64,000 bases of DNA. Origin: a virus (Duplodnaviria > Heunggongvirae > Uroviricota > Caudoviricetes). Location of the stretch: IMG/VR virus record IMGVR_UViG_3300031088_000776; one strand, 5' to 3'. Positions 1 through 57,111 of the stretch are shown here, piece by piece. The notes under the pieces are model-generated. The model saw nothing but the letters and a program-made list of their open reading frames with translations, did no database searches and had not been told where the DNA came from. Both the position numbers and the translations under genes were made by a program. How positions within the stretch are numbered: the stretch's first letter is position 1; every line of letters starts with the position of its first letter.

Positions 1-174
1 ATGGTAAGAAATCAATCAGATGAATCATTATATGTTGAAGGGATGCAGGCTGTAACACAGTCTCTTCCTATTGTTAATCAAGTTTTGACCCCTAAAGCAG
101 CTGAGGCATTCGCTGAGGGCGTTCAGGATGGTCGGCAGATTAAAGCGATCATTGATGCTGAAGTTTTAGATTAA
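1..174 (+). CDS. short ORF (57 aa) at the window edge, hypothetical
   Basis: ATG at 1, TAA at 172-174, followed by a hairpin terminator. It is below the ORF-track length cutoff and may be the tail of a longer upstream gene. Confidence 0.25.
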   Translation: MVRNQSDESLYVEGMQAVTQSLPIVNQVLTPKAAEAFAEGVQDGRQIKAIIDAEVLD

Positions 175-187
175 TCTTTAAATAAAA

Positions 188-229
188 AAGTAGGTGGTTG
201 GGGTAGTGACTCTTGACCACCTACTTTAG
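188..229 (+). terminator. intrinsic terminator-like hairpin
   Basis: aagtaggtggt ... accacctactt, an 11-bp stem followed by ttt. Confidence 0.55.
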
Positions 230-270
230 TAATTACTGAATGCTACATTGCTATTTTAAAAAAGATTGCA

Positions 271-438
271 GGTCGATTCTAAGCGTCTTGTAGCGTCAAA
301 TTTGGCTCTTAGGGTATAGTCATACAGTAGACGGCATTTACTGTAAAAACTGCAATTTTACTGCAAAAGACCACCTAGTTAGACCCGAGGCTATCACGGT
401 AAACTAGACGCGCTTAGTAGCGCAGTTTCTACTGCATC
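271..438 (+). repeat. family A composite repeat, copy A1 (degenerate 3' stem arm)
   Basis: Shares ggtcga..ctaagcgtc..tgtagc, ttagggtatagtcatacagtagac, the hairpin core gaccacctagtt and the ttagtagcgcagttt module with the copies at 15262, 29436, 52470 and 62826. Confidence 0.8.
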
Positions 439-467
439 AAGAAAATCGAAAAATATGCTGCTATAAT
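435..467 (+). promoter_or_regulatory. putative promoter with an extended -10 (TGcTATAAT at 459-467)
   Basis: The TGnTATAAT motif lies 31 bp upstream of the 498 start codon. The -35 element is weak. Confidence 0.3.
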
Positions 468-497
468 TCAAAAACTTAGTCATTTGATAAGATTGCT

Positions 498-1061
498 ATG
501 AGAATAAGAAAAGAATTGAAATTAGAGAATCTCAAAAAGGCGGTAGACCGAATGGCTGACAATAGTAAAAGAATCATGATTACTGGTCATCGAACAAGAG
601 ACTTCACTCTTGATCAGATCAAATACGCTCAAGAATCACTTCAAAAAGTCATCAAAGGGCTATTGAAGAGTAATCCCGATGCAATCTTCGTCTCAGGCGG
701 AGCAACTGGAACTGATACTTGGTGGAGTCTTCTGGCGCAAAAGTTTGAGCGGCCTTTAGAGTTGTATCTAGCCTTCCCAAATCAAGACTCACAGTGGAGC
801 AATAAAGAAAAGGCTCTTCATAGACATATTAAGAATTACGCCTCAGAAATCACATACGCCTCTGATGAATATAGTAAGTCAGCCTATCATATCCGGAATG
901 ACTCAATGCTAAAAGTTGCGGATATTGTAGTTGCCGTATATGATTCTAATAAGAATAAGTCTGGCACACATTCAGTAGTTCAAAAAGCTAGAAAAATGGG
1001 AAAGCCGCTAATTATCATAGATTTTATTAACGAAGAGATTATAAAGGAGAAAAATGGGTGA
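498..1061 (+). CDS. YpsA/DUF1273-like SLOG-family Rossmann protein
   Basis: The motifs IMITGHR, VSGGATGTDTWW and VVAVYD match the B. subtilis YpsA pattern (ITGYK, ISGQLG..W, LLLLYD). The gene overlaps the next gene by 8 bp. Confidence 0.55.
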   Translation: MRIRKELKLENLKKAVDRMADNSKRIMITGHRTRDFTLDQIKYAQESLQKVIKGLLKSNPDAIFVSGGATGTDTWWSLLAQKFERPLELYLAFPNQDSQWSNKEKALHRHIKNYASEITYASDEYSKSAYHIRNDSMLKVADIVVAVYDSNKNKSGTHSVVQKARKMGKPLIIIDFINEEIIKEKNG

Positions 1062-1581
1062 GATTAAGCTTGACGAGTCTATAAAAATGGCATACGTCTT
1101 GCGACATAACCCTAGTTCAGTAGGTCTAGAGTTAGATTCTAAGGGAACTGTAGAATTAAAGAAGTTTTGTGAAGCTCTTGGCTTTACTGAAGAGGTAGTT
1201 AGAGAAATCGTAGAGAATGACTCGAAAGGTCGTTTCGTTCTTCGTAGTGAGAGAATTTCAGCTGCTCAGGGCCACTCGATTAGCGTTGAAGCTGAATTAA
1301 GCTCTTTTACGCCTACTGATGTTGTCTACCATGGAACTAAGCGTAAATTTCTGAAGTCAATTATGAAGTCTGGCTTGAAGCCTATGAGCAGAACTTTAGT
1401 TCACCTTTCAACAACTGTTGACACTGCTCAGAAAGTTGCTGATCGACGTAAAGGTGAGTCAGTAATTCTTGTTATTGATGCAGTTAGCATGGTTTCTGAA
1501 GGTCATTTGCTAAAGATTTCTGAAAACGGAGTTGTTCTTGTTGAGCATGTTCCCTCAAAGTTCATAAGAATTATGGAGTAA
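1054..1581 (+). CDS. kptA: RNA 2'-phosphotransferase, Tpt1/KptA family
   Basis: YVLRHNPSSVGL, AAQGHS, VVYHGT and RTLVHLS align with the conserved motifs of E. coli KptA (VLRHKP, AVQGHS, LYHGT, VHLS). Confidence 0.9.
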   Translation: MGEIKLDESIKMAYVLRHNPSSVGLELDSKGTVELKKFCEALGFTEEVVREIVENDSKGRFVLRSERISAAQGHSISVEAELSSFTPTDVVYHGTKRKFLKSIMKSGLKPMSRTLVHLSTTVDTAQKVADRRKGESVILVIDAVSMVSEGHLLKISENGVVLVEHVPSKFIRIME

Positions 1582-1721
1582 TTTATTTTACTGTTCTGGC
1601 TTTACAACCCTTTAGGTTTGTTTATAGAAAGACAACGTTTAGTTATTGTAGGTTAGAAAATCGAGAATAATTCTGTACTTCAAGTTCGTTTTTTAAGAAT
1701 ATTCTAATAGTTAGGTATGGA

Positions 1722-1848
1722 TTAACGCTCAATACCATCTTAACAGTCAGTAGTTAAAGTCTAACAGCAGCTAAGTGAAAAGATGAACAAATACCCATCT
1801 GAATTTAGCTGCTGTTAGACTGTCTGGTGCCGCTGCTTAGAGCGTATT
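1722..1848 (+). repeat. family B repeat, copy B1 (candidate structured RNA)
   Basis: Core caacagtcag ... gactgtctggtgccgctg with an internal perfect 16-bp inverted repeat, gtctaacagcagctaa (1759-1774) and ttagctgctgttagac (1805-1820). Homologous to the copies at 16403 and 55636. Confidence 0.75.
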
Positions 1849-1871
1849 ATTTTTAAGTATTTAACAAAGCT

Positions 1872-2462
1872 TTAATCATTATTTATCTGCTCGCTACTTA
1901 TCCATTCTTCCGAATCAGCATCATCATATACTTCATCCTGCGAGTATGACTCAAAAGCTAACTCAAAGTCTTTAAGAGTTTTAGTAATATTCTTTAATAT
2001 TTCATGAGCGATCATGATTAAATGAGATAGTTGCTTGTCAAAGAAATCTTTAGAATCATTATCGAATGGTTCCTCCTTAGAAGAATTGATTCGATAAGTT
2101 ACCTGACCTGTTTGCGGATAGTATCTAGTTCCTCGAGCAAAGTCTTTAATATGGTAGTCTTCTTTATTTGCGTCTTCAAAAGTTGCTTCAATACTAAAGT
2201 TAGGCTCAAGATGCTCATCAATAGACTCTATTGCTTTCTTGAGTAAATCAGACTCATCACGCTCAAGTATTTGATTTTCGAAAATTATTGAACCATCGCC
2301 TCGATTGTCAGAAGTTTTACAAATTTTAATTGAGTATCCAGTTTCTTCCTCAGTTAAGACGATTGTTATAGTGCTGTCTCTTTGGTTTACTTCAAATCTT
2401 TTAGGAATTTTCATAATATTCCTCCTACAAAAAATAGTCGCTGATAACTTAGCTTGTAGCAT
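1872..2462 (-). CDS. hypothetical acidic protein
   Basis: 196-aa ORF with no recognised motif. Confidence 0.5.
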   Translation of the reverse strand: MLQAKLSATIFCRRNIMKIPKRFEVNQRDSTITIVLTEEETGYSIKICKTSDNRGDGSIIFENQILERDESDLLKKAIESIDEHLEPNFSIEATFEDANKEDYHIKDFARGTRYYPQTGQVTYRINSSKEEPFDNDSKDFFDKQLSHLIMIAHEILKNITKTLKDFELAFESYSQDEVYDDADSEEWISSEQINND

Positions 2463-2503
2463 TAATTATCAGCGACTTAGTCAATGAGATTATTGATTTT
2501 TAT

Positions 2504-2897
2504 TTAAAGGTCCATCTCAGAGTCAATAGTGTAGTAGACCTTCTTGATTCCAGCCTTACGTAGAGCGGCTTGGCAGTTTTCGCAGGGCTTGCTCATTGCT
2601 TGAGAATCATCCTTCAAGATTCGTGCTACATAAATGACAGCACCGCGAAGATCAGTCTTTCCGCAATTCCGGATAGCAGCTACTTCCGCGTGAACAGATA
2701 CTGCATGATCTGGATTTTCAACATAACCGTTTGAGAGTAGAGTACGGTTGACTCCTGACCCAACTTCTTTGCCGTTCTTAACTACGATTGCGGCGAGACG
2801 ATAAGTGCAGGTCGATGACTTTGCTAGCTCTGACGCCTTAGCTAGCTTCTCCTTTAGTGGAATGGGAAAGAGCCACCTTGAACTTCAAATCATTCAT
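2504..2897 (-). pseudogene. dCMP/cytidine deaminase paralog, frameshifted
   Basis: The reverse-strand translation MNDLKFKVALSHSTKGEAS* is followed, in another frame, by ...AIVVKNG...HAEVAAI...PCENC..., which is co-linear with the intact copy at 3000-3392. Confidence 0.7.
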
Positions 2898-2999
2898 GAT
2901 TCGTACTCCTAAAATTTAAGAATTTGTTTTAACAAGTATAACTATATCAAGTAGTTGTCTTTTGGCAAAACTTGCAAAAATATTTTAGACAGTATGTTC

Positions 3000-3392
3000 T
3001 TACAGATCCATTTCAGAATCAATAGTGTAGTAGACCTTCTTGATTCCTGCTTCTCGAAGTGAATTCTGGCATCGGTCGCAAGGCTTACTCATTACAGGGT
3101 CACCACACTTCGAAACGCGGGCCACATAGATAACAGCTCCATTAAGATCTGCGCCGCGGGACGCCTTGATAGCTGCTACTTCAGCATGGATTCCCGCTCC
3201 AGTCTTAGGATCAGTGATCTGACGAGGATTGTTAACTTTGTAATTAACTCCTTGAGAAATGACATTGCCATTCTTAACAATGATAGCGCCATGCTGATGG
3301 CGATACTTAGAAGTTTTTGCTAATTGTAAAGCACGGTCTAGTAGATCCTTAGTTCGCGCGGACTGCGGAGCTCGGAACTTCAAATTCGACAT
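3000..3392 (-). CDS. deoxycytidylate (dCMP) deaminase
   Basis: Carries the HAEVAAI and PCDRC zinc-binding motifs of the CMP/dCMP deaminase family. GAAAGG lies 11 nt upstream of the ATG that starts MSNLKF. The longer ORF reaching 3437 is possible. Confidence 0.85.
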   Translation of the reverse strand: MSNLKFRAPQSARTKDLLDRALQLAKTSKYRHQHGAIIVKNGNVISQGVNYKVNNPRQITDPKTGAGIHAEVAAIKASRGADLNGAVIYVARVSKCGDPVMSKPCDRCQNSLREAGIKKVYYTIDSEMDL

Positions 3393-3538
3393 GTGCTTTA
3401 AGCCTTTCAAAAAATCAATATGTAACTCATTAATCATACAAAAAATTCTTAAATATTCAAAATTGCGAAAAGCAGTATTGAAAATTTCATTAAAACTTTC
3501 AAAAAATAGTTATATTTGATATAGTTCTAACAAACAAT

Positions 3539-3610
3539 GCTTTTGTGGGCTATAGGTAGGCCAGTTGACTCTAAATCAACCGTATGCGAGTTCGATTCTC
3601 GTCAAAAGCA
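3539..3610 (+). tRNA. tRNA with anticodon CUA (amber suppressor, tRNA-Sup)
   Basis: Hand-folded cloverleaf. Acceptor stem GCTTTTG/CAAAAGC, U8, D-stem GGCT/GGCC with A14 and G18G19. Anticodon stem GTTGA/TCAAC around the loop C-T-CTA-A-A, with U33 and A37. 5-nt variable loop. T-stem GCGAG/CTCGT with a TTCGATT loop. Discriminator A. No encoded CCA. Confidence 0.85.
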
Positions 3611-3868
3611 CTTTAAAAACTTTTTAAATACACTCTAAAACGAAAGGTGATTCAAAAATGACCTAGGTACTTTTGACTCATAATTCACTTTATTTCAAGC
3701 GGGCTTGCTTACTGCATGCTCGCTTATTCAGCATGCTCTGTCGATTAAGAATATAAGATATGTGCGAATGCATAGTCAAAAAACATCGCGTAAAAAGACT
3801 TAAACATATAAACGCACATCTAACTATACCAGAAAACAATCTTAATCAATAGTACAGGAGTACTAATC

Positions 3869-4408
3869 ATGTCTAACATCAAAGACACTCTAGAAGAATT
3901 AAAAGCTGTAAGAGAATTTCGTGAAGTCAAGGCTAAGAGAGCTAGACTGGATCTTTATAAAGCAATAGAAAAAAGAAGAATCAAGGCGCGAGTGATTGTT
4001 CTAGCAGTCTTAAGAAAGAAATTTTCGAAAGATGATTTTTTGGCCCTTGAGTACCGAATTAAAACTCGTAAGAATCTTGACTACTCTAAAGAGTTGAACT
4101 GGGTTCTTCAAGAAAAAACTAATGATAGAGACTTCATTACTCAAGAGCAGATTATTTTGGCTTCTCTTTCTGTTCGAGAAGTTGCTAGAAGAACTCGAAT
4201 TGAGGTTGATGCTTTCAAGAAGTCTGAGAAACTTCGATTGAAAAAGAAAGAACTTCAAGAAAATATTGAGTTACACGATACTCTTAATAAAGAGAAGACT
4301 GAGAGATATATTAAGGACAGCATGATCCAAAAAGAGATTAATACTGCTCGTATAAGAAAGAATACTCTTATTAAAGAAATTCAAAAACTCGAAAGCGAAG
4401 TCAAGTAA
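3869..4408 (+). CDS. hypothetical coiled-coil protein
   Basis: ORF rich in Lys, Glu and Arg. Confidence 0.5.
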   Translation: MSNIKDTLEELKAVREFREVKAKRARLDLYKAIEKRRIKARVIVLAVLRKKFSKDDFLALEYRIKTRKNLDYSKELNWVLQEKTNDRDFITQEQIILASLSVREVARRTRIEVDAFKKSEKLRLKKKELQENIELHDTLNKEKTERYIKDSMIQKEINTARIRKNTLIKEIQKLESEVK

Positions 4409-4409
4409 A

Positions 4410-4922
4410 ATGAATCATCTGCAAAAAATTATTGTTAAATCAAATGAGTTAGACTCTAAGAGAGAAGAATTATCAGTAGCTCAGGAAGATTTTCTTAAAG
4501 AGGAACAAGTCTTCAATAAGAGTGTTTCGCGCGAGACTCTTAACTTGCTATTCGTTGGCCGCAATGTTCTTAAAAAGATCTTAAGCCCAATAGAGTTTAA
4601 GAAGTTTGAAAGAGGATACTATAAAACTCAGTTCTTCTCTGGGCTTAAATGGCTGAGAATCCATGACCCTAAAATTAGTTTTGAGGTATGGAGAACTGAC
4701 CCTAGTAAGGGAACAATTATTTTGAAGGGTTTTGATTGTAGTGGTAATTATCTAGCTTACTCTATTTCAGCAGATATTTTGAATTATAGTATTAGAGAAT
4801 TTGCGAAGATGGTTAGGGTTCAATCTAAAGAGGCTCTTATAAAGTCTTGGGAGGATGAAATTTTAAAGGCTGAAGAGACTATCGAGCGAAATAAAAAGAA
4901 TTTGAAGAAATTTACTCACTAA
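4410..4922 (+). CDS. hypothetical protein
   Basis: ORF whose start abuts the stop of the preceding gene. Confidence 0.5.
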   Translation: MNHLQKIIVKSNELDSKREELSVAQEDFLKEEQVFNKSVSRETLNLLFVGRNVLKKILSPIEFKKFERGYYKTQFFSGLKWLRIHDPKISFEVWRTDPSKGTIILKGFDCSGNYLAYSISADILNYSIREFAKMVRVQSKEALIKSWEDEILKAEETIERNKKNLKKFTH

Positions 4923-4991
4923 TGGTTTACTTTTTATTAGAAAATTGTTAGGATCACATTTACTAAAGGACTCACTTAAACTACGAAGAGG

Positions 4992-5402
4992 TTGATTGAA
5001 ATGACTGTTGAAGCTATCGCTAATATGCGTCTCGATAAAATCCGCTTGAAGAAAATTATTCAAAGACTTAATGAAGAGTTAGGCCCGGGGCTTGTTTCAA
5101 GGGCGGCTTCAGATAAGGGTTACTTCATGTCTATTGAGTGGTGCTCATATGGAGCTGGCCATGCTGAGCCTACTGCTACTGAAGAGGTTAAAATTTTAGC
5201 CTTAGCAACAACTTGGGAGGCACTTTCCCGATTCGGTTCCTCTAATGCTTTAGATTGGCTACAAAATAGCAATTCTCTTCTTGACAGTGAGAGTCCTATT
5301 GAAGTTTTGAGTAAAGGGCACTTCGAGGATTTTGATAATGCATTTGAAGCTCAACTCAATGAGATTCGAGATGTAAGATTAAAGCGAGGATTTGCCGCTT
5401 AG
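4992..5402 (+). CDS. hypothetical protein
   Basis: ORF ending in a tandem TAG TAG, followed by a terminator. Confidence 0.5.
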   Translation: MIEMTVEAIANMRLDKIRLKKIIQRLNEELGPGLVSRAASDKGYFMSIEWCSYGAGHAEPTATEEVKILALATTWEALSRFGSSNALDWLQNSNSLLDSESPIEVLSKGHFEDFDNAFEAQLNEIRDVRLKRGFAA

Positions 5403-5417
5403 TAGTATTTTTATTTC

Positions 5418-5457
5418 AAAGAGGGTTGAAGGTATCAATATGCTTTCAACCCTCTTT
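5418..5457 (+). terminator. intrinsic terminator
   Basis: aaagagggttgaa ... ttcaaccctcttt. Confidence 0.7.
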
Positions 5458-5587
5458 AAGCATAAACATCAACTATCGGCAACAATTAGAGTAAAGTTTG
5501 TTTAATCTATTAACTGATTCTTGTTGATTTTAAGAAATCTCAAAGACCTCCTTTTAGAAAAAGTTTAAACATTATGGGGGTTTAAAA

Positions 5588-6679
5588 GTGAAGTATCATG
5601 TTAACGATGAAGGTCGAGTTCTTGTTTGCAAGGCTGATGTTCGAAGCTGTAACTTCGGTGAAGAAGAAGGCGGTATTGGCCACTATCCTAACCCTAAAGA
5701 CGCTGAGAAAGCATATGAGCGTCATATGCAATCAAAAATTTTCGCGAATGTTTCACGTCATCCTGAAATTCGTTACGAAGCTCCTTTAGAGTCTGCTAGT
5801 TATCATGAAAAAGTCCTTAGAGACTGCTATGACCGAAACAAAGAAATGTCGCAAATACAGCTGGCTAAACATTATAACTATGTTAGCGATACTATTTCAG
5901 AGCTTTATAAAAAAGGGATGACTACTGAAAAGACTCACGCTAGAGAAACTAAAGCTGGCCTAGCATTTAATGATGAAAGAGTCAAGGCTCATACTGAAAT
6001 CATTAATGAATTTATCGAAAAATATAAAGAAGTTCCTGAAAATGGTGAGGCTTTGTTCGCTGGCGGTCTCGGCGGGGCAGGCAAGTCTACAGTTCTAGGG
6101 CAATACGCTGGAATTGATCAATCGAAGTACGTAACCTTAAACCCCGATGATATTAAAGAGATTATGGCTGAGAAAGGATTGATCCCTAAAGTTAAGGGTC
6201 TGACTCCAATGGAGGCATCTCCTTTAGTCCATGAAGAGGCATCGCATATTACTGCTATAATCTTTGAAAAGATTCGTCAAAAGAAAAAGAATATTATCTT
6301 CGATATAACAATGTCTAGTCTTGGTTCAGTACAAAATAGAATACTTCATCTTAAGAAAGCAGGATATACTAAAGTTAGTGGTGTTTTTGTGGATATTACT
6401 CCAGAGACTTCGCATGAGAGAGGCGAGTATCGCTACCGTCAAGGTCTTCAGGATTATCTGAAAAATAAAAACGGCCACGGTGGGAGATTCTTACCGGGTA
6501 ATATTACAAGTGGTTTAAAGACAGATGAAGATAGTCAATTTAAATCTAAGAATGCTGAAAACTTTGTGAATCTTGCTAAACTTGGCGGTTTCACGCATAT
6601 GCCTCGAGTTTTTAATAATAATGTTTTTGGTCGTGACCCACAAGAAATAAGCTTTAAGAAGTTCGTTAAAGGTGAGTAG
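5588..6679 (+). CDS. N-module family protein with a C-terminal P-loop kinase (zeta-toxin/AAA_33-like)
   Basis: N-terminus MKYHVNDEGRVLVCKADVRSCNFG..GHY..AEKAYE carries the shared module. The C-terminal domain has the Walker A motif GGLGGAGKST. Confidence 0.5.
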   Translation: MKYHVNDEGRVLVCKADVRSCNFGEEEGGIGHYPNPKDAEKAYERHMQSKIFANVSRHPEIRYEAPLESASYHEKVLRDCYDRNKEMSQIQLAKHYNYVSDTISELYKKGMTTEKTHARETKAGLAFNDERVKAHTEIINEFIEKYKEVPENGEALFAGGLGGAGKSTVLGQYAGIDQSKYVTLNPDDIKEIMAEKGLIPKVKGLTPMEASPLVHEEASHITAIIFEKIRQKKKNIIFDITMSSLGSVQNRILHLKKAGYTKVSGVFVDITPETSHERGEYRYRQGLQDYLKNKNGHGGRFLPGNITSGLKTDEDSQFKSKNAENFVNLAKLGGFTHMPRVFNNNVFGRDPQEISFKKFVKGE

Positions 6680-6761
6680 ATCTTAGTAGTTAGTTTAATG
6701 TCTTAAAATTTGATTATTAGAAGAATTGCGATATAGTAGTTAATGACGAAAGGATTTAATA

Positions 6762-6986
6762 ATGGAAACTACTCTTAAAGAACTCTTTGAAAAGTACTCG
6801 AACGGTGAATTGACTCTTGCGGAAATTAAGCCTCAACTTGCTAATGTTGCTTGGCCTGAAAAGAAGACTGAATCCGGAGAAACTTGGTATGAGGGCAATC
6901 AGGATAATACTGTTGCTGGAGTTCAGGCGACTCTTGAGACGCGCCGCGATCGGCGTAAGTTTGAAGAATTTCTCGCTATCATTTAA
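6762..6986 (+). CDS. hypothetical small protein
   Basis: 74-aa ORF. Confidence 0.4.
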   Translation: METTLKELFEKYSNGELTLAEIKPQLANVAWPEKKTESGETWYEGNQDNTVAGVQATLETRRDRRKFEEFLAII

Positions 6987-7006
6987 GCTATAAGTTTAGA
7001 ATTAAC

Positions 7007-7046
7007 TAAAGGGTTGAACCAACATTTTAATGGTTCAACCCTTTAG
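7007..7046. terminator. bidirectional terminator hairpin
   Basis: taaagggttgaacc ... ggttcaaccctttag, lying between convergent genes. Confidence 0.7.
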
Positions 7047-7068
7047 AGGCTTAAGATTATTGTATGTT

Positions 7069-7434
7069 CTATTCTTGCTTACCAACGAGATAGTCACCTG
7101 CAAATACACGAATAGTCTTGAAGTATCTTTTCATAGATTTCTCAATAGTATCCCCACCAACATTGTTAGAGGTATGCACAATGACTTCTTGAATATTTGG
7201 TGAGTTATCGAAAAAGCATAATTCTTCTATCTTGCTCAATACTGGAATAGTTGAATCTTTTTCTCCTTCAGGGGTTAATCCAAGATCATGATCAAACCAT
7301 AGTTGTTCAATGATAGTATTAGAATCAATAGAGTTGAGCCACTCTAGAGCTTCAGCGCTCGATCTCAGCACAATTGTGTCTTCCTTTTCGAATTTCTTCA
7401 GAAAACTTCTTTCATCGTCAATAAGAACAATCAT
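7069..7434 (-). CDS. CheY-like receiver (REC) domain protein, stand-alone
   Basis: MIVLIDDE (acidic pocket), WFDHDLG (candidate phospho-acceptor Asp), IVHTSN (Thr) and a later Lys follow the spacing of a REC domain. Confidence 0.4.
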   Translation of the reverse strand: MIVLIDDERSFLKKFEKEDTIVLRSSAEALEWLNSIDSNTIIEQLWFDHDLGLTPEGEKDSTIPVLSKIEELCFFDNSPNIQEVIVHTSNNVGGDTIEKSMKRYFKTIRVFAGDYLVGKQE

Positions 7435-7607
7435 TTTAATCCTTTTAAAATACTGAGATATTTTTCATCTTAAACTAACTATATCATACTGTTAATAAGA
7501 AGTCTTTATTTCTAGTCGATATGAACCTTTAACTTACTGTAATTGAATTTATTTTTCATTTTAGAAAATGTGCTATTTAGTTGAACTCAATACATTTGGA
7601 GCTATAA

Positions 7608-8381
7608 ATGACTAGATACCATATTAACGATGCGGGTAATCCTGGGCAGTGTGAAGCGAAGATCAAGTGCCGCTTTGGTGATTTAGAGACTGAGCATTAC
7701 GGATCGCGAGAAGAAGCTGCACAAGCCTATGAAGAGAAGCAAGAAAAGGAGATTCAAGAAGCGCGGAAAGCCTTAGACACTCTTAATAAACTTGAAGGTG
7801 TTAGCAGAAGTTTAACTAAAAACTCAGATAGACTTAGACAAAAGATTGAAGCTACAGAGAAGATCGTTAAAGTTGCGTCTAACGAGGGGAATTTAGATTC
7901 TTTCGAGAAGCATTATAATGAATTAAAAAAGCTTGAAGCAGAACGTAAAGAAGTTGAGACGAAACGAAAAGAAGTTGCTTCAATAATCTCTAAAAAAGAA
8001 GAGTTACAGAAATCAAGCTCACAAAAGACAACAGCTGCTCAACTACGAATTGCTGAAGATAAAACACTAGAGACTCGAGCTAAACTAATTAAAGATAAAT
8101 CAAAGTTGCAGGCTGCTGAAAAGAAGTTTAACTCAAAAATAGCCTCTAGGGCTGATATAAGCGAGCTGAAGCCACTTATGGAAGAACTTAAAATATTACA
8201 AGATCAAGTTGAACAATCTAACTCAGACTGGAAGAAGGCTACCTCTGAACTTTCAAAACTTAAGAAAGCGGAGCCAAAACGAAAGAAAAGCAATCCAGAA
8301 GTAAAGACGCTTAAGAAGTCTTCTCGAAGTGAAGATTACTACAATTATAATTGTGGTGGATACGGATCTGGTCGATGCTAA
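7608..8381 (+). CDS. N-module family protein with a Lys-rich coiled-coil C-terminus
   Basis: N-terminus MTRYHINDAGNPGQCEAKIKCRFG..EHY..AAQAYE. The remainder is a coiled coil that ends CGGYGSGRC. Confidence 0.5.
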   Translation: MTRYHINDAGNPGQCEAKIKCRFGDLETEHYGSREEAAQAYEEKQEKEIQEARKALDTLNKLEGVSRSLTKNSDRLRQKIEATEKIVKVASNEGNLDSFEKHYNELKKLEAERKEVETKRKEVASIISKKEELQKSSSQKTTAAQLRIAEDKTLETRAKLIKDKSKLQAAEKKFNSKIASRADISELKPLMEELKILQDQVEQSNSDWKKATSELSKLKKAEPKRKKSNPEVKTLKKSSRSEDYYNYNCGGYGSGRC

Positions 8382-9043
8382 AGTTAATAGGTATCTCAGG
8401 TAAACCAGGTAGTGAAAAGATGGTTTACGCTTTCAAAATCATTCAAGAATTAAGATTCCACGGTTATAAAACTCATCTAGTTTCTCTAGCTGAACCACTA
8501 TATAAAGAATTCAATGAGATTGCTGACCAAATAAAGATATATGGACAGGATGCTGATTATATAGTAAAGAACTATAGTCTAGAGGCTAAAGGGCTTGAAC
8601 TCTATAAGCTTCTTAAAGAGAATAATCTAGGTGAGAAAAGTCCAGTTTACGGATACTCTAGAAGGAATGAGTTTGTGCGTAAGGGATTAAGTATGCTTGG
8701 TAGTGAAATACGTAGAGAACAAGACCCTGATTACTTTATTAAGAAACTTACTAAAAACCTTCCGGAAGGCGATTTTGGAGTTCTGATTGATTTGAGATAT
8801 CCTAATGAAGCAGACTTCATTAATGACAATGATGGAATAGTGTTGAGAGCCTTAAGAGACTTTGAAAGTGAACACGGTGGATATAAGTATCAGCAAGGCA
8901 TGAATGACCCTACTGAAACTTCATTAGATGATTACGAAAATTTCTTAGATTATCTTGAATATGATAGTTTTGATAGAGTTAGCTTTGCAAAGAATCTTCT
9001 AAAAATGTATGATTTAGATACTAAGGAAGAAACTGTAAGATAG
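8375..9043 (+). CDS. dNMP kinase-like P-loop kinase (T4 gp1-like), paralog 1
   Basis: ISGKPGSEK P-loop, GSEIRREQDPDYFIKK and DLRYPNE, co-linear with the 10150 paralog. ATG at 8375 overlaps the upstream stop. Confidence 0.6.
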   Translation: MLKLIGISGKPGSEKMVYAFKIIQELRFHGYKTHLVSLAEPLYKEFNEIADQIKIYGQDADYIVKNYSLEAKGLELYKLLKENNLGEKSPVYGYSRRNEFVRKGLSMLGSEIRREQDPDYFIKKLTKNLPEGDFGVLIDLRYPNEADFINDNDGIVLRALRDFESEHGGYKYQQGMNDPTETSLDDYENFLDYLEYDSFDRVSFAKNLLKMYDLDTKEETVR

Positions 9044-9065
9044 TCTTTAATGCTTAATAAATAAT

Positions 9066-9105
9066 TTAAGGGTGGATAGCCTAGAATATTGCTATCCACC
9101 CTTAA
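9066..9105. terminator. bidirectional terminator hairpin
   Basis: ttaagggtggatagc ... gctatccacccttaa. Confidence 0.7.
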
Positions 9106-9164
9106 AGAGACCTTTTATTTAATTTTGAAAAAATCTTAGACTATATAGACTTTGGCTAAGGTAT

Positions 9165-9995
9165 TTAACTTGGGTTAGGGAAGTATGGAGATTTCTCTAT
9201 ATCAGTCAATTTAGGTCTTGTGACTGAATCATGGACATTACGCTCCACCATATCCCAAGAGTAATCAATAGCTGAATTATGGGTATTGCCAAGCCTATCA
9301 AATTCCTTAACATCATAAGTTAGTCTTATGAAAGTTCTCAGCCCTTTGAATTCTGCAAAACCTGATTCATGCACACTATAAGCATCCATGAAGTATACTG
9401 TGTCAGGTTCTGCAATTATGAAATCTTCAGCTTGAAGGTCGAACCCCATGAAAACATTGAAATATTTTGGATCGGCAACTACAAATCTCTGCGGATAGAA
9501 TCGAGTGCCACCGTTAGTTGTTGCAACATAATTTCTATTGACCTTAGTCTTCTTAAGTATTCGCTCACCTTGAAAACCGTCAACGTGAAGTCCGCCATGA
9601 CGCTGTTGTTCCTCTGGATCGACTTCTTTGCAGTCAATAGTTAAATAGGTATTGTACTCAATCCAGTTGGGATTATGATGGTGCTCTAGACTTATTATAG
9701 ATTCAATAAGTTCTTGAAGCCCCCACCATTCTTCAGGTAGTCTATACTCTTCAGATCCTGCTAATCGTAGAGGCATATCTAGGCAGCGATGGTATTCTTT
9801 ATTGAGGATTTCAGTACCTACTGATTCAATTTTGATTGGAGGGTGAATCTCTTCAGAGTATCTTTCGTATGTGAAAACTCTTTCATCTTCTTTAAGCCTT
9901 TCGTTAGATTCTAAAGTTTCTGTATTCTTGAGAATCCTATAGTTAGGGCTACTACTATATTTGTCAATAGTCTTGTCTTTATTTCTAGTAAGCAT
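9165..9995 (-). CDS. hypothetical protein, possible Fe(II)/2OG dioxygenase-like cupin
   Basis: LHVDGF (HxD), a downstream YSVHESG (His) and RTFIRLT (Arg) resemble the HxD...H...R triad. Confidence 0.3.
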   Translation of the reverse strand: MLTRNKDKTIDKYSSSPNYRILKNTETLESNERLKEDERVFTYERYSEEIHPPIKIESVGTEILNKEYHRCLDMPLRLAGSEEYRLPEEWWGLQELIESIISLEHHHNPNWIEYNTYLTIDCKEVDPEEQQRHGGLHVDGFQGERILKKTKVNRNYVATTNGGTRFYPQRFVVADPKYFNVFMGFDLQAEDFIIAEPDTVYFMDAYSVHESGFAEFKGLRTFIRLTYDVKEFDRLGNTHNSAIDYSWDMVERNVHDSVTRPKLTDIEKSPYFPNPS

Positions 9996-10149
9996 TGCAC
10001 TCCTTTAATTTTTTAGAAATATCGCTGGACTTTTTGTTTAAGTTGTTTTCTAAATTTTTTAAATATTTGCTTTCAAGTCTTCTGTCTATCTTTAGTAGTT
10101 CTTGGTAAAACAATCTTAACTATTGAAATAAGATTAAGGATAAACTACT

Positions 10150-10929
10150 GTGGGATTGAACGCAATTGAATTGTCAGAGAAATACGATTTAGACAGAACT
10201 TTAGTAGAGAGAGCATATTCTAATATTAAAGAAAAGAAAGTCGTATTCTTTGCTATTTCTGGAAAGATCGGTGCGGGGAAAGATTCAGTTGCGCCGCGTA
10301 TTCTAGAGGCTATGAATATTCGGTCAAATGATTGTGAGCATGAGTTTTTCGCTCGGCCTCTTAAGACTGAGGTTACACAATTAGTTAATATTTGCAGATA
10401 CTCTGGAGCTTTTGAAGAAGCTGTTGAAAGAACTATTAAAGAATTAAGTGTTAAGCCTGAAAGAGCAAAAGAAGCTGTCACACTTCTTTATCGTGATGTT
10501 AAGCAAGGTGAGGTCACTAGCGGTTATGATCGCACACCTTCAGTCCGTTTAGCCTTGCAGCATTGGGGTACTGAGGTTCGCCGTGAGCAAGACGATCTTT
10601 ACTGGGTGAAAAAAGCCTTGAAGAATACTATTGAAAAACTTGCTGAAGGAAAGAACGTATATATTACTGACACTCGATTCCCTAATGAGAATGATTCAAT
10701 TATCGATTCAACTGGGATTACTATTAGATTATTAGTCTCCCCAGAAGAGCAAATAAGACGAATCCAGTCCCGTGATGGAATCGAAGTTACTGAATCTTCA
10801 AGGAATCATATTTCTGAAACAGCGCTTGATGACTATACCGATTTTGACATTACTGTCGATACGGATGAGAATAGTATTGAAGAAGTTGTTGGAATTATTA
10901 AAGGAAGTGAAGTATGGCAGAGAAACTAA
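10150..10929 (+). CDS. deoxynucleoside monophosphate kinase (T4 gp1-like), paralog 2
   Basis: ISGKIGAGKDS P-loop. VRLALQHWGTEVRREQDDLYWVKK and YITDTRFPNEND match T4 gp1 (SGVKRSGKDT, VRRLMQALGTDL..MYWVK, YIVPDTRQDHE). Confidence 0.7.
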   Translation: MGLNAIELSEKYDLDRTLVERAYSNIKEKKVVFFAISGKIGAGKDSVAPRILEAMNIRSNDCEHEFFARPLKTEVTQLVNICRYSGAFEEAVERTIKELSVKPERAKEAVTLLYRDVKQGEVTSGYDRTPSVRLALQHWGTEVRREQDDLYWVKKALKNTIEKLAEGKNVYITDTRFPNENDSIIDSTGITIRLLVSPEEQIRRIQSRDGIEVTESSRNHISETALDDYTDFDITVDTDENSIEEVVGIIKGSEVWQRN

Positions 10930-11486
10930 TTCAACTTGCTATTGATCTAGACGAGGTAGTCTTTGATTATGTTGGCGGAGTTCGAGAGTATGGCAAGACT
11001 AAAGGTGTTATTTTGCCTGATAGCGAGCCTTCGCATTTCTCTATGACGGAATCTGGATGGTTTAAGACTATGAGTGACTTCCATGAATTTCATAGAGGGG
11101 CTGTAGTTGACAATATTTACCAGAATCTAAAGGTTATCGAGGGAGCTTCTGAAACTCTTCATGAACTTTCAGATTCAGGGTATGGGATTAATATCCTAAC
11201 TTCTCGCTTCGTTCTTCCGCGTCAGCATAATCTTGTTGTCACTCAGACTGTTAATGCTCTAGATATGTTTGACATCCCATATTCAAATATTACCTTTAGT
11301 AATGAGAAGTGGCGCCATAAGTATGATGCATATTTTGAGGATGCTCCGCATAATCTTATCCCTTTGCAAGAACATGGTCTTTATACTGTAACTTTTGATC
11401 GACTTTGGAATAGAGATGTTCCTGGTGATCGAGCAAGAGGTTGGAGCGAATTCCGTGAAGTTCTTAAGGGAAAGTTCGGGAAGTAA
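10914..11486 (+). CDS. HAD-family 5'(3')-deoxyribonucleotidase-like
   Basis: The N-terminal AIDLDEVVFDY is a DxDxV motif typical of the NT5C-type HAD nucleotidases. Confidence 0.5.
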   Translation: MAEKLIQLAIDLDEVVFDYVGGVREYGKTKGVILPDSEPSHFSMTESGWFKTMSDFHEFHRGAVVDNIYQNLKVIEGASETLHELSDSGYGINILTSRFVLPRQHNLVVTQTVNALDMFDIPYSNITFSNEKWRHKYDAYFEDAPHNLIPLQEHGLYTVTFDRLWNRDVPGDRARGWSEFREVLKGKFGK

Positions 11487-25072: not shown

Positions 25073-25531
25073 ATGAGCGAATCAATAAATGATTTCAATA
25101 GATCCGACATTGTAAATAGGGCGATCATTCTAGCGAATAAAGCGCATTCCCAGGATATGTGGGGTGAGCACCCTTATTCAATTCATCTTGCGCTTACTGC
25201 AGTAAAGATTCGAGAAGTGATCCCTGGAGTTCCGATGGCGGAGGCAGCAGCTTGGCTTCATGATGTAGTTGAGGATCATCCAGAATATGCTTCACAGGTT
25301 CGCGAAGAGTTTCCTGAAGTCTATGAAGCTGTAGTGAACGTTTCTCGTAAGAGTGATGAGAGTTATGATGAGTTTATTGATAGAGTCATCGGAACTAAGG
25401 ATAGACTGACGATTTCTTTGAAATATGCGGATATGTCAGTAAATCTAGGTAATAATCCTCGCGAGAGTTTGCGTGAAAGATATGAGAAGAATATTGATAG
25501 GTTAGCAGAAGCCCTCAAAGAATTTGAATAA
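25073..25531 (+). CDS. HD-domain phosphohydrolase
   Basis: A His in HSQDMWGEHPYSIHLAL followed by LHDVVEDH gives the H...HD...D pattern. Confidence 0.55.
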   Translation: MSESINDFNRSDIVNRAIILANKAHSQDMWGEHPYSIHLALTAVKIREVIPGVPMAEAAAWLHDVVEDHPEYASQVREEFPEVYEAVVNVSRKSDESYDEFIDRVIGTKDRLTISLKYADMSVNLGNNPRESLRERYEKNIDRLAEALKEFE

Positions 25532-25671
25532 ACATATTAAAATCTTTGTTTTTGAAAGTCTATAATTTCTTGTTACAATTATTTTAGTGCGTTGCTTCTT
25601 ACTGCACTATAAAAACTAAGGAGCTGGTGGCGACCCTGATAATCAAAAAAATTTTGAAAGGTTGCAAAATA

Positions 25672-26724
25672 ATGAGAAAGCTAGTAACAGTAAAGACTAT
25701 CGACCAGATTACACCAATCCCAGATGCTGATCGCATCGAGGTAGCGAGAATTGATGGTTGGAATGTAGTCGTTGGTAAGGATCAGCATCATGTTGGAGAA
25801 AAGGTCGCTTTCTTCGAGATCGACTCTTTCCTTCGTGAAGATCTTCCAAGGTTCGAGCAGTTTCAGTCACGTGGTCAGAAGGCCATGGAGGTTGAAGGTG
25901 TAGAGCTTAGAGGCCATGTTCTTAAGACTATTAAGCTTCGAGGCGTATACTCTCAAGGGCTTATTATGAGCCTTGAAGCTGTTGGGTTCAATCCAAGCGA
26001 AGTGGCTGAACTTACTGAAGGTACGGACATTACTAATATTGCCGGCGCGTTAAAGTGGGAGCCTCCGCTTCCTACCTCTGTTGAAATCATTGGTGAGTTT
26101 GATACTCGTCACTCTCCGAAGACTGATGCAGTTCGATTACAAAACATTGTTGATCTGTGGGATGAGATTCGAGAAATTGACTGGACTCCTACAGTAAAGG
26201 TTGACGGAACATCCCAGACATTTGCTAACTTTGACGGTAAAATTCGTGTCTTTGGTAGAAATTGGGAACTCGATCCAGAAACTTCAGTAGGCCTTAAGCT
26301 CGCTCGTGAGAATGGTATTTTTGAAGATCTTGAAGAAATGGGTAATAGCTCTGTAATTCAGGCAGAGCTAGTCGGTCCAGGTATTCAGGCTAACTCTTTG
26401 AAGCTTCCAGGTAAGAGACTTATTGTTTTCTCTGTTTGGAGGAATGGAGTTAAGCTTGAGCGTAGCGAGTGGCCTGCTTCTGCATTGAAGCATTCGACTC
26501 CTATTCTAGGTGACGAATATCTTCCAAAGAACTTTGAAAGCGCTGAAGGTCTTATTGATTTTGTCAACGGTCTTAAGGGGAGCGTTAGCAAGAATGTTAA
26601 AGATGAGGGTGTGGTTTACCATCCAGTGAACCCATCTTCAGTACCTCTAGAGTTAGTGAATAGCCTTGATCGCAATCTTAACTTTAAGGTTATTTCAAAC
26701 GCTTGGCTTTTAAAGAATTCATAA
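25672..26724 (+). CDS. ATP-dependent RNA ligase (N-terminal OB-like domain plus nucleotidyltransferase)
   Basis: Motif I KVDGTS in TVKVDGTSQTF and motif IV EGVV in KDEGVVYHP, with a Lys-containing C-terminus. GAAAGG RBS lies before the ATG at 25672. Confidence 0.55.
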   Translation: MRKLVTVKTIDQITPIPDADRIEVARIDGWNVVVGKDQHHVGEKVAFFEIDSFLREDLPRFEQFQSRGQKAMEVEGVELRGHVLKTIKLRGVYSQGLIMSLEAVGFNPSEVAELTEGTDITNIAGALKWEPPLPTSVEIIGEFDTRHSPKTDAVRLQNIVDLWDEIREIDWTPTVKVDGTSQTFANFDGKIRVFGRNWELDPETSVGLKLARENGIFEDLEEMGNSSVIQAELVGPGIQANSLKLPGKRLIVFSVWRNGVKLERSEWPASALKHSTPILGDEYLPKNFESAEGLIDFVNGLKGSVSKNVKDEGVVYHPVNPSSVPLELVNSLDRNLNFKVISNAWLLKNS

Positions 26725-57062: not shown

Positions 57063-57111
57063 TATTTCACTACTTTCTTGTTTGTAAGCTTACTTTTCTA
57101 TTTTACCAAAT

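What the first reader, a model, noticed from the sequence alone, without database searches (positions are those of the whole stretch)
498..1581. YpsA-like SLOG protein and Tpt1/KptA RNA 2'-phosphotransferase in an overlapping operon
The two genes overlap by 8 bp.

Tpt1 uses NAD to remove 2'-phosphates from RNA junctions and can ADP-ribosylate 5'-phosphate ends. SLOG/YpsA domains are predicted to bind NAD- or ADP-ribose-derived ligands.

Together with the RNA ligase at 25672-26724 this suggests a phage RNA-repair route, for example healing tRNAs cut by host anticodon nucleases through a 2'-PO4 ligation pathway. The pair could alternatively act as a sponge or processor for ADPR-derived defence signals.
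Basis: partly seen in the sequence, partly recalled or inferred. Interest (0 to 1): 0.7.

Follow-up and report, generated by a model that had tools for sequence, protein, structure and literature searches.

The report
Phage SLOG–Tpt1 two-gene NAD/RNA module
A huge uncultivated phage carries a tightly coupled gene pair: an intact NAD-dependent RNA 2'-phosphotransferase (Tpt1/KptA) and, just upstream, a small YpsA-like SLOG protein of the kind predicted to handle ADP-ribose derivatives. Both families are already known in big phages, but this pairing is conserved only in this phage lineage.

Summary
ORFs 498/552-1061 and 1054-1581 overlap by 8 bp (ATGGGTGA). They encode a YpsA-family SLOG protein and a Tpt1/KptA.

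- **SLOG:** Pfam 51 bits; AlphaFold pLDDT 97; best fold match is B. subtilis YpsA (2NX2), TM 0.80.
- **Tpt1:** Pfam 132 bits. The Arg17-His18-Arg60-Arg113 tetrad is intact, as are K58, H93 and R131.
- **Genome:** a 697,643-bp contig with rIIA/rIIB, a TET-associated glycosyltransferase and a dNMP kinase, so a huge phage.
- **Conservation of the pair:** the YpsA-then-Tpt1 order holds in relatives down to 35%/46% protein identity. There an RNA ligase, an HD protein and, in two of the three loci, an RNA-repair HAD phosphatase lie 3-5 kb upstream. Only 3 of 76 dereplicated Tpt1 lineages have it.
- **SLOG relatives:** 21 of 149 are fused to NADAR, and some to Macro or DUF4326.
- **Best reading:** Tpt1 removes RNA phosphates using NAD, and the SLOG partner binds or processes the ADP-ribose product.
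- **2'-PO4 ligation route:** weakly supported. The ligase 24 kb away is a nick-sealing Rnl5 type, and no 2H esterase was seen.

Published comparative genomics (Iyer et al. 2022) already predicts most of this. I rate it a new variant of a known kind, of moderate interest.

The parts
498..1061 (+). YpsA-like SLOG protein gene (187 aa from ATG 498; more likely 169 aa from ATG 552)
   Evidence: ORF. PF06908 scores 51 bits. AF2 pLDDT 97.1. Foldseek top hit is 2NX2 YpsA, TM 0.80. Family-invariant residues, in 169-aa numbering, are G12, R14, G49, G53, D55, R115 and G138; H13 and T139 are conserved in at least 90%. The public gene call starts at 552.
1054..1581 (+). Tpt1/KptA NAD+-dependent RNA 2'-phosphotransferase gene (175 aa)
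   Evidence: PF01885 scores 131.7 bits and phrog_5470 E 3e-47. Best PDB sequence matches are 9LD4 (TkoTpt1 per PMC12678800), 8TFI and 6E3A. R17, H18, K58, R60, H93, R113 and R131 are invariant.
1044..1049 (+). Shine-Dalgarno AAGGAG for Tpt1, inside the end of the SLOG gene (translational coupling)
   Evidence: Read directly from the sequence.
179..235 (.). Strong hairpin after the preceding small gene. It marks the upstream boundary of the bicistron and is followed by a roughly 260-320 nt leader.
   Evidence: Inverted repeat I2; it is also the dominant stem in the fold.
1758..1821 (.). Perfect 17-bp inverted repeat between Tpt1 and the convergent gene 1872..2462 (-). It marks the downstream boundary.
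   Evidence: Inverted repeat I1; ORF layout.
7069..7434 (-). cREC_REC protein. Possible associate only: literature predicts it is a cyclic phosphodiesterase for RNA 2',3'>p or ADP-ribose 1'',2''>p.
   Evidence: Precomputed PF20274. Conserved at the same relative position in L003. Prediction from PMC9503650. Association not shown.
5588..6679 (+). Zeta_toxin/AAA_33 P-loop kinase with the KYHxxxxG N-terminal module. Possible 5'-OH polynucleotide kinase candidate only.
   Evidence: Precomputed PF06414/PF13671. No match to any solved-structure sequence. Substrate unknown.
25073..25531 (+). HD-domain protein just upstream of the RNA ligase (weak, below the Pfam cut-off)
   Evidence: PF13328 HD_4 scores 22.3 bits against a cut-off of 27.2. 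An RNA ligase followed by an HD protein also lies upstream of the YpsA-Tpt1 pair in L087, L089 and L171.
25627..26724 (+). Rnl5-family nick-sealing RNA ligase (N-terminal OB domain plus adenylyltransferase; likely start 25672)
   Evidence: PF21189 84 bits plus PF09414 39 bits. Naegleria NgrRnl 5COT, E 1.3e-47 over the full length.

Best explanation
The two genes form one bicistronic unit of a huge phage. It couples an active NAD+-dependent phosphotransferase to a partner that handles its ADP-ribose chemistry.

Tpt1 attacks NAD+ with a 2'-phosphate, or a terminal phosphate, on RNA. [quoted passage not shown] The YpsA-like SLOG protein is made from the same mRNA by translational coupling. It binds or hydrolyses the ADP-ribose-derived product, or the phospho-ADP-ribosyl-RNA intermediate or cap, so that the reaction runs to completion and the by-product is detoxified or recycled. 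The module probably serves early-infection RNA repair or anti-defence.

Shown here: gene structure, family membership, intact catalytic residues, the SLOG fold, conservation of gene order in one phage lineage, and fusion of SLOG relatives to ADP-ribose hydrolase domains.

Inferred: that the two proteins act in one pathway, the SLOG ligand, and the physiological RNA substrate.
For: 1. Structure of the unit: an 8-bp overlap with an internal SD, bracketed by hairpins, with a convergent downstream gene.
2. Tpt1 looks catalytically competent. R17/H18/R60/R113 are invariant, as are K58, H93 and R131. These map onto the TkoTpt1 and CthTpt1 residues shown to be essential.
3. The SLOG fold prediction is of very high confidence and matches YpsA. 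Polar residues are strictly conserved: G12, R14, G-x-D55, R115 and G138 invariant, H13 and T139 in at least 90%. This suggests a specific ligand or catalysis.
4. The order YpsA-then-Tpt1 is kept in L003 (62%/69% identity, 17-bp overlap). It is also kept in L087, L089 and L171 (35-36%/46-49% identity, 68-bp gap), although no other flanking ORF gives a full-length match.
5. In those distant relatives an RNA ligase and an HD protein lie 3-5 kb upstream on the same strand, with HAD_SAK_2 as well in L087 and L089.
6. 21 of 149 SLOG relatives are fused to NADAR. Others are fused to Macro or DUF4326.
7. An unrelated phage lineage has NadV-HAD-KptA-x-Macro-SLOG...NadE.
8. Other phage Tpt1 genes sit beside Pnkp/tRNA_bind or NADAR genes.
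9. The literature predicts viral YpsA-like SLOG, cREC and NADAR domains process ADP-ribose derivatives, and that KptA in jumbo phages serves RNA repair (PMC9503650).
Against: - No biochemical data exist for any viral YpsA-like SLOG.
- No SLOG-Tpt1 fusion was found among the 149 closest SLOG representatives.
- 71 of 76 dereplicated Tpt1 lineages have no SLOG within 4-6 kb, and the neighbours of phage Tpt1 are otherwise highly variable. Tpt1 therefore does not generally need this partner.
- In cultured phages the SLOG relatives sit without a KptA neighbour. The one phage found with both genes has them 31 kb apart.
- Conserved adjacency within one lineage could partly reflect shared ancestry rather than selection.
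- No source of internal 2'-PO4 RNA is identified in the window.
Confidence: 0.45

Rival explanations
1. The functions are independent and the genes are merely co-located in an early anti-defence region. The SLOG protein is a sponge or degrader of host ADP-ribose-derived immune signals (cADPR isomers of Thoeris-type systems). Tpt1 separately repairs or trims RNA ends.
For: Iyer et al. 2022 propose exactly this role for viral YpsA-like SLOG domains. Most Tpt1 genes lack a SLOG neighbour, and most SLOG relatives in cultured phages lack a KptA neighbour. SLOG domains of ThsA bind cADPR isomers (abstracts listed).
Against: Gene order is conserved across about 35-46% identity with otherwise unconserved flanks. 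Overlap or coupling is seen in two of three lineages. This argues for more than chance co-location. The relatives' fusion partners (NADAR, Macro, DUF4326) act on ADP-ribose conjugates or phosphates rather than being known sponges.
Confidence: 0.25
2. tRNAs cut by host anticodon nucleases are healed to 2'-PO4/3'-OH and 5'-PO4 ends, sealed by the ligase at 25.6 kb to give a 2'-PO4 junction, and finished by Tpt1, as in fungal/plant tRNA splicing.
For: The window holds an RNA ligase preceded by a weak HD-domain match (below the Pfam cut-off), a cREC predicted cyclic phosphodiesterase and a P-loop kinase within 6 kb, and a tRNA gene 2 kb away. Relatives have RNA ligase-HD (plus HAD_SAK_2 in two) close to the pair. 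One phage Tpt1 is next to Pnkp and a tRNA-binding protein.
Against: The ligase is Rnl5 (NgrRnl/DraRnl type). These seal 3'-OH/5'-PO4 nicks in duplexes and are not known to require or leave a 2'-PO4. No Trl1-type ligase or 2H esterase was found in the window proteins scanned (and the precomputed Pfam). cREC activity has never been tested. The ligase is 24 kb away in another gene block.
Confidence: 0.15
3. A writer/controller or toxin-antitoxin-like pair. Tpt1 ADP-ribosylates 5'-phosphate ends of host RNA or DNA, as a cap or block, and the upstream SLOG protein restrains or reverses it. This would be analogous to DarT-DarG/NADAR or ShosT-ShosA (DprA-like SLOG antitoxin) pairs.
For: Tpt1 enzymes do ADP-ribosylate 5'-phosphates (PMC12678800, PMC11833690). 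The architecture, a small upstream gene overlapping an ART-fold gene, resembles TA operons. The SLOG shows weak similarity to ShosA.
Against: The residues needed for step 2 (K58, R60, R131/R132) are kept, so the ADP-ribosyl adduct should be resolved rather than persist. No PADLOC defence model matches Tpt1, and the SLOG gives only a superfamily-level ShosA hit. KptA is not known to be toxic, and nearly all phage KptA genes lack such a partner.
Confidence: 0.1

Closest known systems
Tpt1/KptA RNA 2'-phosphotransferases (yeast Tpt1, E. coli KptA, Runella, Clostridium thermocellum and Thermococcus kodakarensis enzymes)
   Same: Full-length match to PF01885 and to solved Tpt1 sequences (E 2e-32). 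Two-lobe size of about 175 aa. Arg-His-Arg-Arg tetrad plus the Lys, His and Arg residues shown to matter in TkoTpt1.
   Different: Phage-encoded. The Arg of the I-R-A-x-Q-G-H-S motif, Arg in most of the other 25 aligned sequences, is Ser69 here. It is Phe or Trp in the close relatives (P0004-P0007, P0010-P0012); YpsA pairing was confirmed for P0004, P0007, P0011 and P0012. The role of that residue is not described in the papers read. Activity untested.
B. subtilis YpsA (PDB 2NX2), SPbeta YoqJ and the viral YpsA-like SLOG clade
   Same: Same Pfam family and fold (TM 0.80) with the GxD/E motif. SPbeta/phi3T YoqJ and the Microbacterium phage 'DprA-like' proteins are detectable relatives.
   Different: No gpsB neighbour. 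The motif is T-G-H-R instead of T-G-Y-K after strand 1, and G-G-T instead of G-S-P. It is therefore not 'YpsA proper'. It best fits the branch that Brzozowski et al. 2019 link to NAD processing contexts.
NADAR-SLOG, NADAR-SLOG-Macro and DUF4326-SLOG fusion proteins
   Same: The SLOG domain of these fusions is the closest sequence family outside the immediate relatives, at 29-38% identity.
   Different: Here the SLOG is a stand-alone protein. Its partner is an ADP-ribosyl-transferring enzyme (Tpt1) encoded next door, not a fused hydrolase.
KptA-based phage RNA-repair and ADP-ribose-processing networks predicted by Iyer, Burroughs, Anantharaman and Aravind (Viruses 2022)
   Same: A jumbo-phage KptA, with cREC, an RNA ligase, a SLOG and an extra ART all in one genome region.
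   Different: That paper describes KptA with 2H, Macro, NADAR or Nudix, and SLOG with Macro or NADAR. A directly coupled SLOG-KptA operon is not mentioned in the passages I read; its figures were not available to me.
Yeast disposal route for the Tpt1 product: Tpt1, then Cpd1 (2H), then Poa1 (Macro). From established knowledge, not tested here.
   Same: [quoted passage not shown] The KptA-Macro-SLOG cluster in L080 echoes it.
   Different: There is no 2H or Macro in this window. A SLOG, and possibly cREC, would have to take their place.

Membership tests
Tpt1/KptA (PF01885) | Whole-protein profile match above the curated cut-off, covering both lobes | tested here: met
   131.7 bits against 26, covering profile positions 7-176 of 177. 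NCBIfam PRK00819 models score 81.8-180.6 bits, below their equivalog cut-offs of 231-279.
Tpt1/KptA (PF01885) | [quoted passage not shown] | tested here: met
   R17, H18, R60 and R113 are invariant in 34 sequences. They align to the tetrad positions of TkoTpt1 (R17, H18, R65, R118); R17A and R118A give no product and H18A and R65A stall at the intermediate. The tetrad is defined in PMC6333775.
Tpt1/KptA (PF01885) | NAD+-dependent removal of an RNA 2'-phosphate, yielding ADP-ribose-1'',2''>p | not testable with these tools
   Needs an enzyme assay.
YpsA family of the SLOG superfamily (PF06908) | Profile match above the curated cut-off | tested here: met
   51 bits against 27.7. The family profile matches the 2NX2 sequence at E 1.3e-14.
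YpsA family of the SLOG superfamily (PF06908) | Rossmannoid SLOG fold | tested here: met
   AF2 pLDDT 97.1, pTM 0.91. Foldseek gives 2NX2 at E 8e-11, TM 0.80, then DprA, ShosA, MCP and LOG.
YpsA family of the SLOG superfamily (PF06908) | Conserved GxD/E motif after strand 2 | tested here: met
   G53-T-D55 in 169-aa numbering, invariant in 61 sequences. The motif is named in PMC6459960.
'YpsA proper' (Firmicute cell-division regulator) | Conserved coupling with gpsB and the residues needed for division inhibition | tested here: not met
   No gpsB is nearby. The motifs differ from B. subtilis YpsA. The paper says that in the phage homologue YoqJ several of the residues essential for YpsA's division function are not conserved.
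SLOG as an ADP-ribose-derivative binder or enzyme | Binding or turnover of NAD, ADPR, cADPR or ADPR>p | not testable with these tools
   Contextual support only.
Fungal/plant-type 2'-PO4 tRNA ligation pathway | A ligase that requires a 2'-PO4 (Trl1/AtRNL type) with kinase and 2H cyclic phosphodiesterase modules | tested here: not met
   The only ligase in the window is Rnl5 type. No 2H hit appeared among the window proteins scanned. The other 630 kb of the genome was not seen.
Known anti-phage defence or toxin-antitoxin systems (PADLOC: Shosta, Thoeris, DarTG and others) | Match to system-specific protein models in the right gene combination | tested here: not met
   Only a weak ShosA hit for the SLOG (E 1.8e-6) and none for Tpt1.

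The most novel reading that the evidence does not exclude
The YpsA-like SLOG protein is a dedicated enzymatic partner of Tpt1. [quoted passage not shown] That would give the first biochemical function for viral YpsA-like SLOG domains. It would also give a physiological context for Tpt1 in organisms that have no 2'-PO4-generating ligase.
Probability: 0.2. Interest if true: 0.65.

Novelty: new variant of a known kind. Interest (0 to 1): 0.4.

Why it matters
Two open questions meet at this locus. First, what does Tpt1/KptA do in bacteria and phages that lack a yeast-type ligase? The Tpt1 structure paper calls this a long-standing conundrum (PMC6333775). Second, what do the SLOG domains found in about a third of jumbo phages do? 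They are still uncharacterised experimentally (PMC9503650). A compact, translationally coupled operon whose gene order is conserved gives a simple two-protein system to express and assay together. If the SLOG acts on the Tpt1 product or intermediate, that would define a new step in phage NAD/ADP-ribose metabolism, relevant to RNA repair and to evasion of NAD-based immunity. If it does not, the pair is just two known accessory genes sitting side by side.

Tried and rejected
- Megablast of window 1-4000 against 50,697 phage genomes found no match.
- A single-protein scan of IMG/VR for close Tpt1 relatives found none.
- SLOG alignments (A2, A3) and the broad Tpt1 alignment (A1) were too divergent for pattern scans of the viral, metagenome or genome collections. 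As a result, SLOG-side neighbourhoods could not be sampled at scale and cellular genomes were not surveyed.
- The metagenome scan with the narrow Tpt1 alignment returned only relatives at 46% identity or less, and none has a SLOG nearby.
- No SLOG-Tpt1 fusion was found among 149 SLOG representatives.
- Unbiased clustering of Tpt1 neighbours in 76 dereplicated loci found no widely shared partner. The top real family occurs in 6 of 76.
- Neighbours of KptA in Klebsiella phage FBKp24 have no Pfam match.
- Sigma-70 promoter and terminator consensus scans were not above the shuffled expectation.
- The 5' leader folds with z = -2.9, but this is dominated by the upstream terminator hairpin. There was no Rfam hit.
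- The P-loop kinase at 5588-6679 has no relative among solved-structure sequences, so a polynucleotide-kinase role is unsupported.
- I first considered a small bacterium (a CPR-like 0.7-Mb genome) because of pilus, PBP and RecA genes. I rejected this after finding rIIA/rIIB, TAGT and DNMK hits.
Full report
**Observation.** The window has two same-strand ORFs, 498..1061 (187 aa) and 1054..1581 (175 aa). The second ATG (1054) lies 5 nt before the first gene's TGA (1059-1061), which gives the 8-bp overlap ATGGGTGA. An AAGGAG ribosome-binding site at 1044-1049 lies inside the end of the first gene. Public gene calls on identical contigs start the first gene at ATG 552, giving 169 aa. Homology begins only around residue 24-26 of the long ORF, so 552 is the likelier start. 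The pair is set off by a strong hairpin at 179-235, after the preceding small gene, and by a perfect 17-bp inverted repeat at 1758-1821. The next gene (1872..2462) is convergent. So it is a discrete bicistron.

**Family assignments.** ORF1 matches Pfam YpsA/SLOG PF06908 at 51 bits (cut-off 27.7), with weaker hits to DprA, cpYpsA and other SLOG families. ORF2 matches PF01885 Tpt1/KptA at 131.7 bits over essentially the whole profile. PHROGs gives phrog_289 and phrog_5470, the latter annotated 'RNA 2'-phosphotransferase'.

- An AlphaFold2 model of ORF1, built with 61 homologues, has pLDDT 97.1 and pTM 0.91 and an alternating beta/alpha Rossmannoid topology. Its best structural match is B. subtilis YpsA 2NX2 (E 8e-11, TM 0.80). 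DprA, ShosA, the Moco carrier protein and LOG follow, which is the SLOG superfamily. The family profile also finds the 2NX2 sequence at E 1.3e-14.
- In a 34-sequence Tpt1 alignment, R17, H18, R60 and R113 are invariant, as are K58, H74, H93-G-T, H117-L-S and R131. These align with R17, H18, K63, R65, H98, R118 and R136 of T. kodakarensis Tpt1 and with the tetrad defined for the yeast, Runella and C. thermocellum enzymes.
- One deviation: the Arg of the I-R-A-x-Q-G-H-S motif, Arg in most of the other 25 aligned sequences, is Ser69 here. It is Phe or Trp in the close relatives (P0004-P0007, P0010-P0012); YpsA pairing was confirmed for P0004, P0007, P0011 and P0012. The papers I read assign it no role.

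**What genome this is.** The window is part of a 697,643-bp metagenomic contig, ENA ERZ27247443. It encodes:
- rIIA and rIIB homologues;
- a TET-associated glycosyltransferase;
- a weak T4-type dNMP kinase match, a dCMP deaminase and NT5C;
- RecA, DnaB, a clamp, RecG and a ribonucleotide reductase, read from the translations.

I conclude it is a huge phage, although no capsid or terminase gene lies in the part I could see. GC content is 37.9%. No isolated phage is similar at the DNA level.

**Is the pairing conserved?**
- Within one lineage, yes. A 17-kb contig (L003) has the same pair at 62%/69% identity with a 17-bp overlap and the same neighbours.
- Three much more distant contigs (L087, L089, L171) again have YpsA immediately upstream of Tpt1, with a 68-bp gap. 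There YpsA is 35-36% and Tpt1 46-49% identical to the window proteins. No other flanking ORF gives a full-length match to a window ORF; the only other hits are short N-terminal matches.
- In those three contigs an RNA ligase (PF09414) and an HD phosphohydrolase lie 3-5 kb upstream on the same strand. L087 and L089 also carry a HAD_SAK_2 phosphatase, 'HAD domain in Swiss Army Knife RNA repair proteins'.
- Outside this lineage the pairing is rare. I collected 172 Tpt1 loci from IMG/VR, metagenomes and look-ups, which dereplicate to 76 clusters at 80% identity. A SLOG gene is immediately upstream in only these 3 clusters and within 1-3.5 kb in 2 more.
- One of the two is informative: L080/L081 reads NadV-HAD-KptA-x-Macro-SLOG...NadE, an NAD-salvage and ADP-ribose-processing island.
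- Other phage Tpt1 genes sit beside a Pnkp plus a tRNA-binding protein (L173) or near NADAR genes (L172, L027, L078, L109).
- In isolated phages KptA occurs in 97 records, mostly jumbo phages of Erwinia, Dickeya and Klebsiella. SLOG relatives occur in 73 records, including the Microbacterium phage 'DprA-like' proteins and SPbeta YoqJ. Only Bacillus phage C30-3 appears in both listings, with the two genes 31 kb apart.

**What the SLOG relatives say.** An exhaustive HMMER search finds 1,701 relatives at E 1e-3 or better.
- Of the 149 closest representatives, 35 are longer than 215 aa and 21 carry a NADAR domain. Individual cases add Macro (P0123, P0201) or DUF4326 (P0151, P0238). None carries Tpt1.
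- NADAR and Macro are ADP-ribosyl hydrolases. Macro and PARG enzymes, but not NADAR, remove the 5'-phosphate ADP-ribose that Tpt1/KptA-type enzymes add (PMC11833690).
- The family keeps G12, R14, G-x-D55, R115 and G138 strictly invariant, with H13 and T139 in at least 90% of sequences (T-G-H-R, G-x-D, R-N and G-G-T motifs). That fits a specific phosphate/ribose ligand or catalysis rather than a purely structural role. This last point is my inference.

**How it most likely works.**
- Tpt1 is predicted to be fully active. [quoted passage not shown] This is established chemistry (PMC6333775, PMC12678800).
- I propose that the co-translated SLOG protein binds or processes that ADP-ribose product, or the phospho-ADP-ribosyl nucleic-acid intermediate. 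The unit would belong to the phage's early RNA-repair/anti-defence repertoire.
- Several possible partners lie nearby: a cREC protein (7069-7434, a predicted but untested cyclic phosphodiesterase), a P-loop kinase (5588-6679), a suppressor tRNA (3539-3611), and an Rnl5 ligase preceded by a weak HD-domain match that falls below the Pfam cut-off (25073-26724).
- Shown: gene structure, families, catalytic residues, fold, lineage-level conservation of order, and the fusion partners. Inferred: the functional coupling, the ligand, and the RNA substrate. I put this at about 0.45.

The ligase at 25.6 kb is an Rnl5 enzyme (Naegleria NgrRnl, E 1.3e-47, full length; PF21189 OB domain plus PF09414). Rnl5 ligases seal 3'-OH/5'-PO4 nicks in duplexes whose 3'-OH strand is RNA, and their physiological role is unknown. 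Only Trl1-type ligases are known to need and leave a 2'-PO4 (PMC6379707 abstract). I found no 2H esterase, Macro, NADAR or Nudix among the window proteins scanned. The '2'-PO4 ligation' route is therefore possible but not supported by the ligase type. The looser claim, that the pair belongs to an RNA-repair/NAD-ADP-ribose network, is supported. The alternative 'sponge or processor of ADPR-derived signals' matches what Iyer et al. 2022 propose for viral SLOG domains. It remains a live rival at about 0.25. A toxin-antitoxin-like or writer/eraser reading is less likely, because the step-2 residues are intact, no defence model matches, and most KptA genes have no such partner.

**Novelty.** Both families, their abundance in jumbo phages, the SLOG-NADAR/Macro fusions, and the KptA-cREC/2H-ligase RNA-repair idea are already in the literature (PMC9503650, PMC6459960). 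What I did not find described is a directly coupled YpsA-like SLOG-KptA operon conserved across a lineage of huge phages. I could not see that paper's figures. I therefore rate it a new variant of a known kind, interest about 0.4. Its value is as a clean two-protein system for testing what viral SLOG domains and non-splicing Tpt1 enzymes do.

**Limits.**
- I could not sample SLOG-side neighbourhoods at scale, because pattern scans failed on the divergent alignment.
- I could not survey cellular genomes.
- I saw only 74 kb of the 698-kb contig.
- Nothing here is biochemical.

Noticed in passing
window 3539-3611 (+): A tRNA with a CUA anticodon, an amber suppressor (ARAGORN labels it 'Pyl'; Rfam tRNA 62.6 bits). 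TAG still terminates 10 of 56 window ORFs, so there is no blanket TAG recoding in this region. It may serve late genes elsewhere in the genome.
   Followed up: partly
window 5588-6679, 7608-8381, 12679-14052 (-), 60613-61695, 61743-62813: Five paralogous proteins share a roughly 45-aa N-terminal module, M-x-K-Y-H-[VI]-x3-G-x4-C-x-A-x4-C...H-[YF]...AYE, with invariant Y, H, C, C, H and no Pfam match. It is fused to different C-termini: a Zeta-toxin/AAA_33 kinase, a coiled coil, unknowns, and an ADP-ribosyltransferase. ORFs flanking the YpsA-Tpt1 pair in L087/L089 give short BLAST matches (40-104 aa) to these paralogues. It looks like a shared targeting or zinc-binding module on variable effectors.
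   Followed up: partly
window 61743-62813 (+): A second NAD-using enzyme: an R-S-E type ADP-ribosyltransferase (PF03496 ADPrib_exo_Tox, 40 bits) with YRG...STS...ExE motifs, carrying the KYH N-terminal module.
   Followed up: partly
L001 677-9137 (same contig, just upstream of the window); window 37160-39499 and 41509-42195: The huge phage contig encodes a type IV pilus-like set: two T2SSE ATPases, T2SSF, a prepilin peptidase, PilM and PilO. It also has an M50 peptidase. Inside the window are ORFs that look, from their translations only, like a class A penicillin-binding protein with a PASTA domain and a prepilin-peptidase-like membrane protein. This is unusual cargo for a phage.
   Followed up: no
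window 55857-59574 (-), 22081-23373 (+): rIIB and rIIA homologues and a TET-associated glycosyltransferase (TAGT). Together with a weak dNMP kinase match, a dCMP deaminase and NT5C at 3000-11486, these suggest hypermodified (glycosylated hydroxymethyl-pyrimidine) DNA.
   Followed up: partly
window 28576-29409, 30910-32049, 52725-53786, 54118-55608: Four ORFs with cysteine-rich zinc-finger-like repeats and a shared C-terminal region that looks endonuclease-like by eye. DUF4379 treble-clef zinc-finger repeats were confirmed by Pfam for the first two only. They are scattered among the replication genes (RecA, DnaB, RNR), like homing-endonuclease-type selfish insertions.
   Followed up: partly
L080 2017-7301; L173 1269-7040: Other phage Tpt1 contexts. 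One, read from ORF translations, is an NAD-salvage island (NadV-HAD-KptA-x-Macro-SLOG...NadE). The other is a Pnkp (Metallophos + PNKP_ligase)-CTP_transf_like-tRNA_bind-x-Tpt1-NT5C cluster.
   Followed up: partly
Tpt1 residue 69 (window 1258-1260): The Arg of the I-R-A-x-Q-G-H-S motif is replaced by Ser, Phe or Trp in exactly the clade of Tpt1 proteins nearest the query. The members whose upstream gene could be seen all have a YpsA gene there. This may be a clade marker or an adaptation to the partner.
   Followed up: partly
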